Shown piece after piece: positions 29,197 to 33,084 of a DNA stretch of 64,000 nucleotides; position 1 is the stretch's first letter, and every line of letters begins with the position of its first letter. The translations under genes were made by a program, and so were the position numbers. The DNA lies in contig CAXXTH010000017.1 of assembly GCA_963668025.2 (NCBI GenBank), positions 480,001 through 544,000 of the forward strand, written 5' to 3'. The notes beneath the pieces were generated by a model. The model was given only the letters and a program-made list of their open reading frames with translations. It had not been told where the DNA came from and searched no databases. The stretch is from Candidatus Hydrogenedentota bacterium (lineage in GTDB: Bacteria > Hydrogenedentota > Hydrogenedentia > Hydrogenedentales > SLHB01).

Positions 29197-30165
29197 GTGC
29201 ATGGTATGAATAGGAACGCCGCCATGAACAAGATACTAACAGCCATCCTCTGCGCGTCGCTGGCATTGCCAGCTATCGCTGCGGATCGGATCGAGGTGAA
29301 ACCCGACGCCAGCGTCGCCGGTCCGGTGTTGCGGCTGGGCGATGTGGCCACGATCTCGGGCGAAGACATCGATCTCCTCAAGGATATCGAAATCGGCCCC
29401 GCCGCGTTGCCCGGGCAGACCCGCGTGGTGCAAGCCTCGCTGATCAAATCAAGCATCGAGCGGCAGGGATTTGACCTCTCGAGCCTCGAAATCAACGGCG
29501 CGGAGAATGTCCGCGCTACCACGTCGCATCTTGCCCTTGACAAGGCCGGCCTTGAAAAAGACCTCCGGCATTTTATCGAACTGGAAATGCCTTGGGAAGC
29601 CGCCAATACGACTGTCGATGTTGTTGCCCCCAATTTCGAAGTCGTGTTGCCAGAAGGCCAAGTGACGATTGACTGGCGGTGCAGCCCCACTTACCGGTAT
29701 CTAGGAACAGGCTCCTTTCGAGGGGATGTGAAAGTGAACGGCGAGGTCCAGCGCTCTGTGCTATGCCGGGCTGATATCGAAGCGTATGGCGAAGTGGTGG
29801 TCGCCGCCACGGACATTCCCCGGGGCGCGATTTTCTCCGAGAAAAATCTCACCATCGAGCCGCGCGCCCTTTCGACCGTGCCTCGAAACACCATCGAAGA
29901 TCCGGGCGAGCTGCTGGGGCAGGCCGCGAAACGCACTCTATTTCTGGGACAGATTCTCACCACTTCGCATGCCTGTTCGCGCACCCTCATCAAACGCAAC
30001 CAAATCGTATCCGTCGAAGCGCAGACAGACGCTTTGCGCGTGCATATGCAAGCGAAAGCCCTCGCGGATGGCGGAGAAGGGGATGCGATTCCTTGCCAGA
30101 ATACCTCGTCGAAACAAGAATTCGTCGGAATCATCCAGCCGGGCGGAACCGTCCAGGTGAAATAG
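29197..30165 (+). CDS. flgA: P-ring assembly chaperone FlgA
   Basis: Signal peptide, RLGDVA, SAF domain and KALADG...CQNTSSK C-terminus; synteny; true start may be 29224. Confidence 0.85.
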   Translation: MHGMNRNAAMNKILTAILCASLALPAIAADRIEVKPDASVAGPVLRLGDVATISGEDIDLLKDIEIGPAALPGQTRVVQASLIKSSIERQGFDLSSLEINGAENVRATTSHLALDKAGLEKDLRHFIELEMPWEAANTTVDVVAPNFEVVLPEGQVTIDWRCSPTYRYLGTGSFRGDVKVNGEVQRSVLCRADIEAYGEVVVAATDIPRGAIFSEKNLTIEPRALSTVPRNTIEDPGELLGQAAKRTLFLGQILTTSHACSRTLIKRNQIVSVEAQTDALRVHMQAKALADGGEGDAIPCQNTSSKQEFVGIIQPGGTVQVK

Positions 30166-30177
30166 GAGCGTAATCAA

Positions 30178-30831
30178 ATGAATACGCCGATCTTGAAGAT
30201 ATCCATAAACATGGCGGCAGCGTATTTCGTGGTTTTTGGCATGCCAAACGCCTACGCAGACAGCCTGTTCAATGCCCATTCCGAGAAAAAAGGCTCGCTT
30301 GTCTCGAATAATGTCAAAGAATTCCAGGAAGGCGACATTATTAACGTGCTGGTTCGCGAGACGATCGATGCGTCGACCCAAGCGAACACCAACACCACGA
30401 AGAAGTCGAATATCGAGTCCCAGGCCGATGCGGCGGATAATGGATTTCTAGTGGCGGAAAAACCAGGCTTGAACCTGCTGCCTCAAGAAATGCTCCCGAA
30501 TTGGAAGATAGAGTCAGATAAAGAACAGAGCACTAAAGGTAATACCGCTCGTAAAAATACGCTGGTCATGACCCTCGCCTGCCAGGTGAAAAAGGTGTAT
30601 GACAACGGCAATATTGATATCGAAGGCGAAAAAACAGTCACGGTGAACCGGGAAGACTGCAAAATGTTCGTATCGGGGCGGGTGCGGTCCAAGGATGTAA
30701 CGCCTGCAAACACGGTGGACTCAACATTAATCTTGAACGCCCAGGTGAAGCTCGACGGGAAAGGCCCCCTCTGGAATAACCAGCGGCGCGGATGGATCAC
30801 CAAATTCCTGGATTGGTTTTCGCCTTACTGA
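30178..30831 (+). CDS. flgH: Flagellar L-ring protein FlgH
   Basis: GDIINVLVRE, NGNIDIEGEK, GRVRSKDV...NTVDS, GWITKFLD. Confidence 0.9.
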   Translation: MNTPILKISINMAAAYFVVFGMPNAYADSLFNAHSEKKGSLVSNNVKEFQEGDIINVLVRETIDASTQANTNTTKKSNIESQADAADNGFLVAEKPGLNLLPQEMLPNWKIESDKEQSTKGNTARKNTLVMTLACQVKKVYDNGNIDIEGEKTVTVNREDCKMFVSGRVRSKDVTPANTVDSTLILNAQVKLDGKGPLWNNQRRGWITKFLDWFSPY

Positions 30832-30836
30832 AAAAT

Positions 30837-30984
30837 GGAACCGCGAATGGACGCAAATGAACGCGGATACGTGGAGAGTACATCGGATGGTTCGCCCAAA
30901 TAGACATAGCAGGCCTCTTGAGAACGGAATGCCGCTGGCTATTCATTCGGCAGTATTCGCGTCCATTTGCGTCCATTCGCGGTC
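30837..30984. repeat. Hairpin repeat copy 1 upstream of GxxExxY gene
   Basis: ~31-bp arms of 10-nt units (ccgcgaatgg acgcaaatga acgcggatac) inverted around an ~80-nt spacer. Confidence 0.9.
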
Positions 30985-31039
30985 AAAAATCGTTAAGCCA
31001 AGCATTTTGAATGGCGCCCAGTTTGAGGGATGATCTCAA

Positions 31040-31432
31040 ATGGACGCAGATAAAATAGAGAGCCAACTCGTATATCAAGTTGTCGGATGCGCCATGGAAG
31101 TGCTGAATGGCCTTGGGCATGGCTTACGTGAGAAAACATATGAACGGGCCTTATGCATAGAACTTGAGCTTGCAGGAATTCCGTTTTCCCAGCAACAAAT
31201 GCACAAAGTGTTATATAAAGGTAGGCATATCGATGATTATATTCCCGATTTGGAAGTGCCAGAGCGGCTCATCATCGAGACAAAAACCATAGATAAAATA
31301 ACTAATGAAGAAATTGGCCAGGTATTAAACTATCTTAAGGTCACAGGAATACAAGCTGGACTGATATTAAATTTCGCTCATCCCAAACTTGAATGGAAAA
31401 AGATGGTTCATACCCATTTGAGCAGTAATTGA
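31040..31432 (+). CDS. GxxExxY protein (PD-(D/E)XK-like, function unknown)
   Basis: 130 aa; LGHGLREKTYERAL, YIPDL, IIETK, QVLNYLKVTG...GLILNF. Confidence 0.92.
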   Translation: MDADKIESQLVYQVVGCAMEVLNGLGHGLREKTYERALCIELELAGIPFSQQQMHKVLYKGRHIDDYIPDLEVPERLIIETKTIDKITNEEIGQVLNYLKVTGIQAGLILNFAHPKLEWKKMVHTHLSSN

Positions 31433-31440
31433 TGGATAAA

Positions 31441-31578
31441 GACCGCAAATGAACGCGGATACGTGGAGAGTACATAGGATGGTTCGCCCAAATAGACATA
31501 ACAGGCCTCTTGAGAACCGAATGCCGCAGGCTATTCATTCAGAATTATTCGCGTCCATTCGCGTCTATTCGCGGTTCC
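31441..31578. repeat. Hairpin repeat copy 2 downstream of GxxExxY gene
   Basis: Direct repeat of 30837-30984 with near-identical spacer gtggagagtacat...ggctattcattc. Confidence 0.9.
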
Positions 31579-31603
31579 CAAAAGCATATAAGGATGCAGT
31601 CAT

Positions 31604-32722
31604 ATGAAACAGATTCAGCAGAACGGAATTGCCCGCCGCGTGGCGCTCGGGAGCTTGGCGTTCTTGCTGGCGCTGGCGCTGTCGGAAAATGCGTGCGCGG
31701 CGCGCATCATGGATTTATGCGATGTCCAGGGCGCGCGGGGCAATGACCTCAAAGGCATAGGCCTCGTGGTGGGCCTTTCGGCCACGGGCGACAAAAGCGC
31801 GGAAGCGGTCCGCGCGCAACAGCGCTTGTTAAGCCGTCTGGATGTGGAAGTGGCCAGCTATGACAATCTCAAATCGGATAATTGCGCCGTAGTCCTGGTG
31901 ACCGGCACATTTCCCGCCTTTGCAAAAGAAGGCACACAGATAGACGTGCAAATTAGCTCCTTGTTTGATTGCAAGAGCCTCGAGGGAGGCATCTTGCTCG
32001 AGACCCAGCTCACGGGCGCGGACGATGAAGTATATGCGGTGGCGCAAGGCGCGGTTTCCGTGGGCGGGCTGAACGCCACAGGCGGCGGCGCAAAGGTGCG
32101 TAAAAATTATGTGACCGTGGGCCGAATCCCTATGGGGGCCTATATCGAACGGGAGATCCCTTCGACCATCACGGACGGCGAGCGCATGAGCTTTCTCCTC
32201 AAGAATCCCGATTTTGGCACCGCATCAAAAATCGTCACCGTCATTAATGCCGCCCTGGGTTCGGAACAAGCCAGAGCATTGGGCGCGGGCACGGTGAATG
32301 TGGTCATCCCGAAAGAAAATCAAGGCGATTTGATTACATTCATCGCCCAGTTGCAGTCGTTATCCGTGGAGCCCGTTGCGCTTTCGCGCGTAGTGATCAA
32401 TGAACGCACCGGTACGATTGTAGTGGGCGGCGAGGTGGCGATCCGGCCATGCCAGGTGGCCCATGGCGATTTAGTCATCGAAGTGGCCACGACGCCGGTC
32501 TTCCCGGAAAGCGGCGCATTACTGCCAGACGAACGCAAAGGCGAAGTGACGGATGTGAAGGTGAAAGAGCAGCCCGCGCATTTCTTGCCGATAAGCGGCG
32601 CTTCAGCAAGCGAAGTGGCCGTGGCGCTAAACAAGCTGAAAGTGACGCCGCGCGATATGATCGCCATTTTCCAAGCATTGCGCGAGGCCGGCGCTCTCGA
32701 TGCAGACCTGGATATCATGTGA
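31604..32722 (+). CDS. flgI: Flagellar P-ring protein FlgI
   Basis: GIGLVVGLSATGD, KSLEGG, YAVAQG, VVINERTGTIVVG, IFQALREAGAL. Confidence 0.95.
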   Translation: MKQIQQNGIARRVALGSLAFLLALALSENACAARIMDLCDVQGARGNDLKGIGLVVGLSATGDKSAEAVRAQQRLLSRLDVEVASYDNLKSDNCAVVLVTGTFPAFAKEGTQIDVQISSLFDCKSLEGGILLETQLTGADDEVYAVAQGAVSVGGLNATGGGAKVRKNYVTVGRIPMGAYIEREIPSTITDGERMSFLLKNPDFGTASKIVTVINAALGSEQARALGAGTVNVVIPKENQGDLITFIAQLQSLSVEPVALSRVVINERTGTIVVGGEVAIRPCQVAHGDLVIEVATTPVFPESGALLPDERKGEVTDVKVKEQPAHFLPISGASASEVAVALNKLKVTPRDMIAIFQALREAGALDADLDIM

Positions 32723-33084
32723 TGCTATACGTCAATCCCATGGCTGAATCCTATACGCCCCAAGCGGGATTATCTTCTGTCGATACCCAAAAACGCCAGG
32801 TGGCGGTGCGCGAGCTCGAGCAGTATTTCATTTATACCATGCTGCAAGAGATGCGCAAATCCTTGGATTCGGAAACGCTACTAGATGGCGGGCGGGAAAA
32901 ACAGATGTTCGAGGGCATGCTGGATGACGCATTGAGCAAACAGATGGCGGAAACCGGCCAGCTTGGCATCGGCAAGATGATCGAGGAACAACTCAGGATC
33001 AATGAAATACAGTCAAAGCTGCAAGCAGGGAAAACAAGCGCGCAGGATGCGCGCGTGCCTGGCGGATTCAAGCTGGCTTCCTGA
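32722..33084 (+). CDS. flgJ: Single-domain rod-binding FlgJ
   Basis: ELEQYFIYTMLQEMRKS...MFEGMLDD...GQLGIGKMI; ATG overlaps flgI TGA; no muramidase domain. Confidence 0.8.
   Translation: MLYVNPMAESYTPQAGLSSVDTQKRQVAVRELEQYFIYTMLQEMRKSLDSETLLDGGREKQMFEGMLDDALSKQMAETGQLGIGKMIEEQLRINEIQSKLQAGKTSAQDARVPGGFKLAS

What the first reader, a model, noticed from the sequence alone, without database searches (positions are those of the whole stretch)
30837..31578. GxxExxY nuclease-like gene in a hairpin-bounded cassette with attL/attR-like swapped ends, inside the flgH-flgI junction
Seen: a lone AT-richer GxxExxY gene separates normally adjacent flgH and flgI. It is flanked by two direct copies of a ~140-bp hairpin (10-nt periodic arms, spacers differing at only a handful of positions). 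The outer ends match each other (GGAACCGC...GCGGTTCC) and the inner ends match each other (GCGGTC...GACCGC). That is the product expected if a circle carrying gene + GACCGC-hairpin recombined with a chromosomal GGAACCGC-hairpin; recombination between the copies would excise the gene and leave one hairpin. The gene start (aaATGGACGCAGAT) is itself a repeat unit. No TSD, transposase or integrase is present. Known: GxxExxY proteins are ~130-aa PD-(D/E)XK-like proteins without an established function that I know of. Inference: a minimal selfish element in which the nuclease recognises its hairpin and propagates cassette and solo hairpins, a non-RAYT analogue of RAYT/REPIN systems.
Basis: partly seen in the sequence, partly recalled or inferred. 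Interest (0 to 1): 0.85.

Follow-up and report, generated by a model that had tools for sequence, protein, structure and literature searches.

The report
Nuclease gene in repeat-armed mobile cassette
A small nuclease gene wrapped in repeat-built inverted arms has been inserted between two flagellar genes, and it belongs to a widespread, apparently undescribed class of tiny mobile-looking elements found in many bacterial phyla.

Summary
Window 30837-31578 is a 742-bp insertion between flgH and flgI. It carries one intact 130-aa GxxExxY/PF13366 PD-(D/E)XK gene. Two direct copies (132 nt, 93% identical) of an arm-spacer-arm segment flank it. Each arm is made of 10-nt units of the CCGCGAATGG type.

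This is not a local oddity. Inverted periodic arms bracket the gene in 84 of 93 GxxExxY loci examined (own genome, own phylum, other phyla). Slid controls gave 1 of 83. The nearest protein relatives, in at least five phyla, carry the same CGC[GA]AAT arms, often with the start codon inside the left arm.

Arms far outnumber genes: 51 arms to 1 cognate gene in this genome. Gene-less arm pairs exist. In one related genome a 577-bp GxxExxY element has at least 22 copies, terminal inverted repeats and 7-bp target duplications.

The attL/attR "swapped ends" argument rests on 2-4 nt and does not generalise.

Three results argue against it:
- An unrelated four-helix-bundle gene family has the same architecture.
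- Orphan arms occur without a cognate gene.
- No circle or excised form was seen.

The mechanism is inferred, not shown. I found no description in print.

The parts
30178..30831 (+). flgH (L-ring protein), the upstream host gene
   Evidence: PF02107 E 4.5e-40
30837..30870 (+). Outer left arm L1: GGAA followed by three 10-nt units (CCGCGAATGG ACGCAAATGA ACGCGGATAC)
   Evidence: (I1, I2)
30871..30952 (+). Spacer 1 (82 nt). It occurs only in this cassette
30953..30986 (+). Inner right arm R1', the reverse complement of L1 (94% over 31 nt), followed by an A-run
   Evidence: I2; fold dG -69.8, z -7.1
30852..30983 (+). Direct repeat, copy 1 (arm-spacer-arm)
   Evidence: (D1)
31039..31054 (+). Degenerate arm unit that contains the start codon (AATGGACGCAGATAAA). 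In relatives the start codon lies inside the left arm
   Evidence: D2, 88%
31040..31432 (+). GxxExxY / PDDEXK_3 gene, 130 aa, with motif residues G28-E31-Y34 and D70, E80, K82 intact
   Evidence: AF2 model pLDDT 89.5 with a PD-(D/E)XK fold
31438..31462 (+). Inner left arm L2, with only two units
   Evidence: (I3)
31463..31544 (+). Spacer 2, a copy of spacer 1
31545..31578 (+). Outer right arm R2'. It ends GCGGTTCC and pairs with L1 (33 nt, 88%)
   Evidence: I1
31444..31575 (+). Direct repeat, copy 2 (93% identical to copy 1)
   Evidence: (D1)
31604..32722 (+). flgI (P-ring protein), the downstream host gene
   Evidence: PF02119 E 3e-106

Best explanation
Window 30837-31578 is one copy of a class of very small mobile-looking elements. 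The core of each is a ~125-aa GxxExxY PD-(D/E)XK nuclease gene. It is bracketed by inverted arms, each built from about three tandem 8-10-nt units with the core C-R-C-N-R-A-D. Here the unit is CGCGAATGGA and the termini are GGAACCGC...GCGGTTCC.

Shown:
- The element is an insertion into the short flgH-flgI spacer.
- Arms and gene travel together across phyla.
- Arms also exist as many gene-less pairs and single modules.
- A related family has multiplied with terminal inverted repeats and 7-bp target duplications.

Inferred:
- The encoded nuclease binds the repeated units of its own arm family and makes the DNA breaks that let the gene-bearing element move or be copied. Gene-less arm pairs would be moved in trans. 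This would be a transposase/TIR or RAYT/REPIN-like relationship that uses a different enzyme fold.
- In this copy the arm-spacer-arm segment was duplicated on both sides of the gene. That could have happened by recombination of a gene-plus-hairpin unit with a resident hairpin, or by tandem duplication plus deletion. The sequence cannot tell these apart.
For: 1. Insertion. The flgH-flgI gap is 772 nt here and -19 to 77 nt in 27 of 28 relatives that hold both genes.

2. Bracketing inverted arms, scored as IR >= 16:
- phylum set: 27 of 29 loci, slid controls 0 of 23
- GTDB relatives: 48 of 52 scored (56 given), controls 1 of 48
- own genome: 9 of 12, controls 0 of 12

3. Protein-arm linkage across phyla. 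Of 24 loci of the window's subfamily, 20 have CGC[N]AAT units and 22 have IR >= 17. These come from Desulfobacterota, Verrucomicrobiota, Kiritimatiellia, Acidobacteriota, WOR-3 and Marinimicrobia records and from own-phylum genomes. Each own-genome paralogue has its own arm family.

4. Concerted change of both arms at one orthologous site. G039 and G094 have CGCGAATGA arms. G093 has CGCAAATTT at both ends.

5. The arm class is specific to the protein family. At least two CRCNRAD motifs occur in 27 of 27 GxxExxY arms and 1 of 26 four-helix arms. At least three GGGH motifs occur in 0 of 27 and 18 of 26. The motif was chosen after seeing the data.

6. Arms outnumber genes. This genome has 51 CCGC-type arms and 1 cognate gene. 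Across 135 genomes, arm pattern and cognate protein occur together in 13, arms only in 10, protein only in 9 and neither in 103. Related genomes are not independent.

7. Gene-less derivatives. G098 has the same arms at the orthologous site with the gene replaced. L107 and L103 hold units with remnants of the gene's 5' and 3' ends. G039 has arm pairs with 86-256-nt spacers.

8. Transposon-like burst in G003. There are 42 PF13366 matches and 22 left ends, 16 of which I could place beside a gene match. Ten ~577-bp copies sit in different contexts. The flanking 7-mers are identical at >= 6 of 7 positions in 5 of 10 copies, against 0 of 90 cross-copy controls.

9. Catalytic residues E31, D70, E80 and K82 are invariant in 7 paralogues. 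The fold is PD-(D/E)XK.
Against: - Four-helix-bundle (PF05635) genes, unrelated and non-catalytic, have the same periodic-arm architecture in 24 of 28 loci, with controls at 0 of 21. The architecture therefore does not need a nuclease.
- G116 has 17 CGCGAATGA-type arm matches and G115 has 6. None of the 7 of their 9 resident PF13366 matches that could be scored is flanked by those arms; 2 had flanks too short.
- Many cognate genes are pseudogenes.
- In this genome periodic hairpins also flank ordinary genes, and most CGCGAAT arms are single modules inside mosaic repeats.
- This copy has no TSD, and I saw none in the canonical elements of its subfamily (by eye).
- Gene-less arm pairs have unrelated spacers, unlike classical MITE copies.
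- A 125-aa minimal nuclease has no obvious strand-transfer activity.
- No binding, cleavage, excision or circle was observed.
Confidence: 0.5

Rival explanations
1. RNA-level element, like a 23S rRNA intervening sequence. The two arms pair in the transcript to form a long stem around the small ORF. A double-strand RNase such as RNase III cuts the stem, releasing or stabilising the ORF's mRNA and making insertion into operons harmless. The encoded protein would be cargo or act on RNA. DNA mobility would come from elsewhere.
For: - The same architecture surrounds four-helix-bundle genes, the family known from 23S rRNA intervening sequences by its Pfam name 23S_rRNA_IVP.
- The elements sit in short intra-operon spacers.
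- No sigma-70-like promoter was found in 30500-31900, so the gene is probably read from the flagellar transcript.
- In many relatives the ribosome-binding site and start codon lie inside the left arm. That would let the stem control translation.
- The full 772-nt gap folds with the outer arms paired.
Against: - Arm mismatches show no excess of G:U-compatible pairs on the sense strand. The counts are 98 against 106 (p 0.62, 77 loci) for GxxExxY and 52 against 35 (p 0.086, 23 loci) for the four-helix genes.
- The arm sequence class is specific to the protein family, which a generic RNase III stem does not require.
- Many arms are solitary.
- An RNA role does not explain multiplication with target duplications in G003.
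Confidence: 0.2
2. Passive cargo. Periodic-arm hairpins are host intergenic repeats (REP/BIME-like), spread or maintained by some other factor or by recombination. Small genes such as GxxExxY are duplicated and shuffled between hairpins by homologous or replication-slippage recombination. The nuclease would have an unrelated cellular or defence role.
For: - Hairpins of the same kind flank ordinary genes and tandem paralogues in this genome.
- Arrays of hairpin-gene-hairpin-gene-hairpin, and arrays with gene fragments, occur.
- Orphan arms occur without a cognate gene.
- Mosaic modules combine arms of different families.
- 132-nt repeats at 93% identity are enough for homologous recombination (established knowledge).
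Against: - Arms follow the gene across phyla rather than following the host.
- 84 of 93 GxxExxY loci are bracketed, against 1 of 83 controls.
- In G003 the only open reading frame inside a 577-bp TIR/TSD element is the GxxExxY gene, and the terminal repeat was not found beside any other gene.
Confidence: 0.2
3. A one-off local duplication of a pre-existing hairpin around a gene acquired by chance, with no wider meaning.
For: The spacer is unique to the two copies, and they are 93% identical.
Against: The same gene-plus-arms pattern recurs in 84 of 93 loci across genomes and phyla.
Confidence: 0.03

Closest known systems
RAYT / REP-REPIN systems (IS200/IS605-like Y1 transposase with its REP hairpins)
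   Same: A single small gene is flanked by its own family of short palindromic repeats. One repeat family goes with each gene paralogue. Repeats far outnumber genes, and hairpin doublets lack a gene.
   Different: The enzyme has a PD-(D/E)XK fold, not an HUH/Y1 fold (only PF13366 matched). The arms are 3 or more tandem 8-10-nt units, not a GTAG-headed REP (REP features recalled). One related family makes 7-bp target duplications. A RAYT-like gene with its own REPs sits at a different element's site in G096 and G097 (read by eye).
Insertion sequences and their MITE derivatives
   Same: Terminal inverted repeats, a single ORF, gene-less derivatives, multi-copy bursts and target-site duplication in G003.
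   Different: No known transposase family is present. The ORF is about 125 aa. The window copy has no TSD. Gene-less arm pairs have unrelated spacers.
Integron gene cassettes (ORF plus attC hairpin)
   Same: Arrays of hairpin-gene-hairpin.
   Different: The hairpins flanking one gene match each other and match the gene's subfamily. No GTTRRRY core is visible at the arm ends (read; core recalled). No integrase was examined or found beside the cassette.
23S rRNA intervening sequences carrying a four-helix-bundle ORF (PF05635)
   Same: A small ORF is enclosed by complementary ends. Four-helix-bundle genes in this phylum have periodic inverted arms too.
   Different: This element lies between protein genes, not in rRNA. 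The protein family and the arm motif class both differ.
Minimal PD-(D/E)XK nucleases: Cas4 SSO0001, Hjc resolvases, lambda exonuclease, I-Bth0305I homing endonuclease
   Same: The fold and the catalytic D...ExK motif.
   Different: Structural matches are weak (best Foldseek E 1.7e-3, TM 0.57; Hjc E ~0.02). There is no sequence match to any solved structure at E <= 1.

Membership tests
GxxExxY protein (TIGR04256) / PDDEXK_3 (PF13366) | Profile match above the curated cut-off | tested here: met
   PF13366 at 116.3 bits (cut-off 22). TIGR04256 at 126.3 bits (cut-off 35).
GxxExxY protein (TIGR04256) / PDDEXK_3 (PF13366) | GxxExxY motif and PD-(D/E)XK catalytic residues | tested here: met
   G28, E31, Y34, D70, E80 and K82 are invariant in 7 own-genome paralogues. 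The model has a PD-(D/E)XK fold.
RAYT/REPIN system | Y1 (HUH) transposase of the IS200/IS605 type | tested here: not met
   The only Pfam match of the encoded protein is PF13366.
RAYT/REPIN system | The gene is flanked by its own repeat family, which is dispersed genome-wide in excess of the gene | tested here: met
   51 arms against 1 cognate gene.
Insertion sequence / MITE | Terminal inverted repeats | tested here: met
   30837-30869 pairs with 31546-31578, 33 nt, 88%. 84 of 93 loci overall.
Insertion sequence / MITE | Target-site duplication | tested here: not met
   In the window copy the flanking 7-mers agree at 4 of 7 positions. The feature is met only in the related G003 family: 5 of 10 copies at >= 6 of 7, control 0 of 90.
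Insertion sequence / MITE | Transposase of a known family | tested here: not met
Integron cassette | attC site with a conserved recombination core, and a nearby IntI integrase | tested here: inconclusive
   No GTTRRRY-like core is visible at the arm ends by eye (core recalled). The genome was not searched for IntI.
rRNA intervening sequence | Located inside a 23S rRNA helix | tested here: not met
   It lies between flgH and flgI. Rfam found nothing relevant in this locus (L001) or three other arm-bearing own-genome loci.

The most novel reading that the evidence does not exclude
GxxExxY proteins are the mobility nucleases of a new, phylum-spanning class of minimal (~0.5 kb) bacterial transposable elements. 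Their ends are arrays of short protein-binding units. Gene-less arm pairs are their REPIN/MITE-like dependants. Four-helix-bundle 'IVS proteins' head a parallel class with G-rich arms, which would also explain where ORF-bearing 23S rRNA intervening sequences come from.
Probability: 0.3. Interest if true: 0.9.

Novelty: new variant of a known kind. Interest (0 to 1): 0.8.

Why it matters
PF13366/TIGR04256 is a large family with many paralogues per genome. It was present in 115 of 135 genomes of this phylum.

Its function is listed as unknown in the one survey passage I read (PMC3424549). Full-text searches for 'GxxExxY', 'PDDEXK_3' and 'PF13366' returned 5 papers. None of the three I opened deals with its function or flanks.

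If the nuclease works on its own repeat arms, three things would follow:
- The family would gain a function.
- A source would be named for abundant intergenic periodic repeats in Verrucomicrobiota-like, Desulfobacterota and other genomes.
- An enzyme fold would be added to the short list that drives bacterial mobile DNA.

The idea is directly testable with one small protein and a 30-bp DNA. The shared architecture with four-helix-bundle genes also bears on the old question of how ORF-bearing rRNA intervening sequences arise.

Tried and rejected
- Excised or circular forms. Four runs were laid on 29800-32800. All are assembled contigs that break at the repeated hairpins. No joint skips the cassette. 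The one joint at 30869/30954 comes from 30-nt arm matches and is uninformative. No RNA holder is listed. Contigs cannot show rare forms, so this says nothing either way.
- Spacer as a conserved RNA or gene remnant. The spacer has no match in 134 other genomes. It has none beyond 14 nt to related elements or elsewhere in the genome. Rfam gave nothing relevant.
- Terminator role. 41 of 51 arms are preceded by a T-run, and hence followed by an A-run on the other strand. That is the wrong order for an intrinsic terminator. The four terminator-like hits are small sub-stems on the minus strand.
- Swapped-ends generality. This was not seen in 4 other cassettes. My hairpin-boundary routine there misregistered some ends, so I read those by eye.
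- RNA-specific pairing signal: none.
- Empty orthologous site. None was found to fix exact ends or a TSD for the window's subfamily. No same-genus genome is held, and the genus g39 sites are all occupied by some element.
- Solved-structure relatives by sequence: none at E <= 1.
- Supplements of papers were not consulted.
Full report
**What is in the window**

The stretch 30837-31578 lies between flgH (30178-30831, PF02107 E 4.5e-40) and flgI (31604-32722, PF02119 E 3e-106). It holds one real gene, 31040-31432(+), of 130 aa. This gene matches PF13366 PDDEXK_3 (E 1.3e-33) and TIGR04256 'GxxExxY protein' (E 7.4e-37). Its GC content is 0.405, against 0.554 for the genome.

Two direct copies of a 132-nt segment lie on either side of the gene (30852-30983 and 31444-31575, 93% identical). 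Each copy is arm-spacer-arm. The arms are tandem 10-nt units (CCGCGAATGG ACGCAAATGA ACGCGGATAC) and their reverse complement.

The left copy is a strong hairpin (dG -69.8 kcal/mol, z -7.1). The right copy is not (dG -40.7, z -1.2), because its left arm has only two units.

The outermost arms are also complementary to each other (33 nt, 88%). The whole 742 bp can therefore be read as a gene between terminal inverted repeats, with an internal direct duplication.

The gene's start codon sits in a degenerate arm unit (31039-31054, 88% to a unit). I saw no target duplication: the flanking 7-mers agree at 4 of 7 positions. No sigma-70-like promoter was found.

**It is an insertion**

No genome of the same genus is held. 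In relatives from other genera, the locus held both genes in 28 genomes. The gap from the flgH stop to the flgI start was -19 to 77 nt in 27 of them. In G039 it was 332 nt, filled by an unrelated long hairpin. Here the gap is 772 nt. The gap values depend on my start-codon rule.

**The arms are a genome-wide repeat, but the spacer is not**

I searched the own genome with the 149-nt hairpin. Only the two local copies matched at full length. The other 54 matches are 25-37-nt arm matches.

A unit regex found 56 arm-like sites, of which 51 start CCGC. 41 of those 51 are preceded by a T-run. Most are single arms inside mosaic repeat modules of about 250 nt.

The 82-nt spacer occurs nowhere else in 135 genomes of the phylum. 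It has no recognisable similarity to related elements.

**The general pattern**

The own genome has 15 PF13366 matches at about 12 loci. Nearly all are flanked by hairpins or arms of periodic units. A different unit family goes with each paralogue: GACCACGAAATACAC, CACCACAGAGGCCACAGAG, AGACATGATTTACAAGATG, CACAAAGACACCAAGACACAAGG, CACGCAAAGGCGCAAAGG and CGCGAAGGCACGAAGG.

PF13366 occurs in 115 of 135 genomes of the phylum.

I scored inverted repeats bracketing the gene (local alignment score >= 16), with controls slid 500 nt outward:

| Set | Loci with bracketing arms | Slid controls |
|---|---|---|
| Phylum set | 27 of 29 | 0 of 23 |
| Relatives from the species-genome collection (GTDB) | 48 of 52 scored (56 given) | 1 of 48 |
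| Own genome | 9 of 12 | 0 of 12 |

**The canonical form**

The window protein's nearest relatives are 52-68% identical. They come from records titled Syntrophobacteraceae, delta proteobacterium, Desulfonatronum, Verrucomicrobiota, Kiritimatiellia, Acidobacteria, Neomarinimicrobiota and WOR-3.

In these loci the gene lies inside one pair of arms. The left arm reads (G)GAACCGCGAATGAACGCGAATGGACGCGAAT and often contains the ribosome-binding site and start codon, giving MNANERE... The reverse-complement arm lies 30-50 nt after the stop. The inner distance is 348-487 nt.

Of 24 loci of this subfamily, 20 have CGC[N]AAT units and 22 score >= 17. More distant subfamilies have other units: CACTGAG, CACGGAG, CACAGAG, CGCGAAG, CGCCAAG, ACAAAGG. 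In each, both arms carry the same unit, and the termini mostly read (A)ACC[GA]C.

At one orthologous site in genus g39, G039 and G094 carry CGCGAATGA arms. G093 carries CGCAAATTT at both ends. G098 has the arms but about 290 nt of non-coding sequence instead of the gene.

Tandem units and gene-less units that keep remnants of the gene's ends occur in L105, L107 and L103. G039 has gene-less arm pairs with unrelated spacers of 86-256 nt.

**Evidence for mobility**

G003 has 42 PF13366 matches and 22 copies of a left-end motif. I could place 16 of these about 120 nt upstream of a gene match. The rest lie at contig ends or were not matched.

Ten copies of about 577 bp sit in unrelated contexts. 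They have terminal inverted repeats (CCCCAATCGCCGG.../...CCGGCGATTTGG), and the periodic arms are subterminal.

At the called junctions, the 7 nt on the two sides agree at >= 6 of 7 positions in 5 of 10 copies, with 3 perfect. Cross-copy controls gave 0 of 90. Several copies share one frameshift, so defective copies also multiplied.

G106 has three copies at 85-90% identity in different places. G051 has an array of hairpin-gene-hairpin-gene-hairpin.

**Arms and cognate gene across genomes**

The arm pattern CGCRAATGRACGCRAATRRA occurs in 23 of 135 genomes. The reversed control pattern occurs in none. A protein matching the window's at E <= 1e-25 occurs in 22 of 135.

| | Cognate protein present | Cognate protein absent |
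|---|---|---|
| Arm pattern present | 13 | 10 |
| Arm pattern absent | 9 | 103 |

Related genomes are not independent, and each gene brings two arms of its own, so this association is only indicative.

Against the main reading, G116 has 17 arm matches and G115 has 6. None of the 7 of their 9 PF13366 matches that could be scored is flanked by those arms. Two had flanks too short to score.

**The protein**

G28, E31, Y34, D70, E80 and K82 are invariant in seven own-genome paralogues.

The AlphaFold2 model (pLDDT 89.5, pTM 0.83) has a PD-(D/E)XK fold. The best Foldseek matches are weak:
- Cas4 SSO0001: E 1.7e-3, TM 0.57
- a restriction-endonuclease-like protein (3ijm)
- lambda exonuclease
- Hjc resolvases: E about 0.02

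None reached E <= 1e-3. No solved structure matches by sequence at E <= 1.

**What complicates the nuclease-centred reading**

- Four-helix-bundle genes (PF05635, '23S_rRNA_IVP') are present in 80 of 135 genomes at E <= 1e-15. They have periodic inverted arms in 24 of 28 loci, against 0 of 21 controls. The own genome's frameshifted copy has them too. Their units are G-rich and 7-8 nt long (AGGGTTT, GGGTCTA, CGGTGGC).
- The two protein families have cleanly different arm classes. At least two CRCNRAD motifs occur in 27 of 27 arms against 1 of 26. At least three GGGH motifs occur in 0 of 27 against 18 of 26. I chose the motif after seeing the arms. That difference argues that the arms are matched to the encoded protein rather than to a generic host factor. 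It also shows that a nuclease is not needed for the architecture.
- Periodic hairpins in this genome also flank ordinary genes, for example three tandem 442-aa paralogues on contig C23. Tandem Repeats Finder (TRF) finds at least ten unit families.
- Mismatches between arms show no G:U bias on the sense strand. The counts are 98 against 106, p 0.62, and 25 against 14 in the smaller set. There is thus no sign of RNA-specific pairing, although the test is weak.

**The attL/attR argument**

The literal observation is right: the outer ends read GGAACCGC/GCGGTTCC and the inner ends GCGGTC/GACCGC. The evidence behind the argument is thin, for four reasons:
- The difference is 2-4 nt at a position that varies among genome-wide arms (gaCCGCG, gaaCCGCG, taCCGCG).
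- Internally, the left outer arm matches its local partner better (94%) than the far outer arm (88%).
- The inner left arm lacks one unit.
- The pattern was not seen in 4 other own-genome cassettes whose four arm ends could be read (partly by eye).

A Campbell-type integration of a gene-plus-hairpin circle remains possible. Arrays such as L280 fit it. So does tandem duplication with deletion, or an insertion that duplicated the whole loop. No excised form could be looked for properly, because only contigs were available and they break at the repeats.

**Literature**

- 'GxxExxY' occurs in 3 library papers, of which 2 were listed. I read the one passage of the first (bioRxiv 10.1101/2021.01.26.428298). 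It only names a domain next to a reverse transcriptase.
- 'PDDEXK_3'/'PF13366' occurs in 2 papers. I read one table passage of PMC3424549, which lists the function as 'Unknown'.
- A search on four-helix-bundle and IVS protein terms listed 22 papers. I read passages of one (PMC8700078), which were not relevant.
- A search combining PDDEXK with TIR and TSD terms gave nothing relevant among the 15 listed (listing only).

Within these searches, I found no description of the arm architecture. Supplements were not seen.

**Verdict**

The cassette is a rearranged member of a widespread, apparently undescribed class of repeat-armed GxxExxY elements. These behave like mobile DNA.

That the nuclease itself recognises the arms and drives the spread is the best-supported mechanism (about 0.5), but it is unproven. 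An RNA-processing (IVS-like) role of the arms and a passive-cargo model remain live rivals.

Noticed in passing
L042 (G000:C18:377721-380912); arms at G000:C18:379027-379060 and 379439-379472: A frameshifted four-helix-bundle (PF05635) gene in the own genome is enclosed by inverted arms of 7-8-nt TAGGGTCT-type units. The same architecture holds for 24 of 28 such genes in the phylum.
   Followed up: yes
L070 (G039), flgH-flgI gap: In G039 the same flgH-flgI junction holds a 332-nt near-perfect long hairpin (dG -188.6 kcal/mol) of an unrelated repeat family. This junction therefore tolerates hairpin insertions.
   Followed up: partly
L175 and L177 (G097, G096), downstream of the matched flank: Where G039 has a GxxExxY element, these genomes have a reverse-strand ORF that looks like an IS200/RAYT-type transposase, flanked by ~100-nt repeats. 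I identified it by eye and recall. It was not run against Pfam.
   Followed up: no
L016, L018, L005 and G000 sites listed: A mosaic intergenic module of about 250 nt recurs at least 10 times in the own genome. It runs: T-run, CGCGAAT arm, a short CATGGGCG...CGCCCATG stem-loop, then a conserved tail. Arms of two different families can sit in one module. Rfam has no match.
   Followed up: partly
G000:C23:323126-328085: Three tandem paralogues of a 442-aa secreted-looking protein are separated by periodic-arm hairpins (TTCACCACAAAG... units). Hairpin-bounded repeats of ordinary genes therefore exist too.
   Followed up: no
L223/L235, L224/L232, L226/L230, L233/L236 (G003): Several G003 element copies share the same frameshift, which splits the Pfam match at position 69/70. 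Defective copies were therefore multiplied.
   Followed up: partly
L104, L115, L116, L118: Elements of the window's subfamily sit at the same place between the same two conserved genes in records from different phyla (Desulfobacterota-like and Acidobacteria). The downstream protein starts MSSWRDQILKEF. This suggests the element rides along with a horizontally transferred operon. The operon's identity was not tested.
   Followed up: no
window 30857-31033 and 31449-31607: Each hairpin copy carries a 52-58-aa ORF starting MNADTWRV... from the ATG inside the arm unit. This mirrors how the real gene starts in relatives. The ORFs are probably not genes.
   Followed up: no
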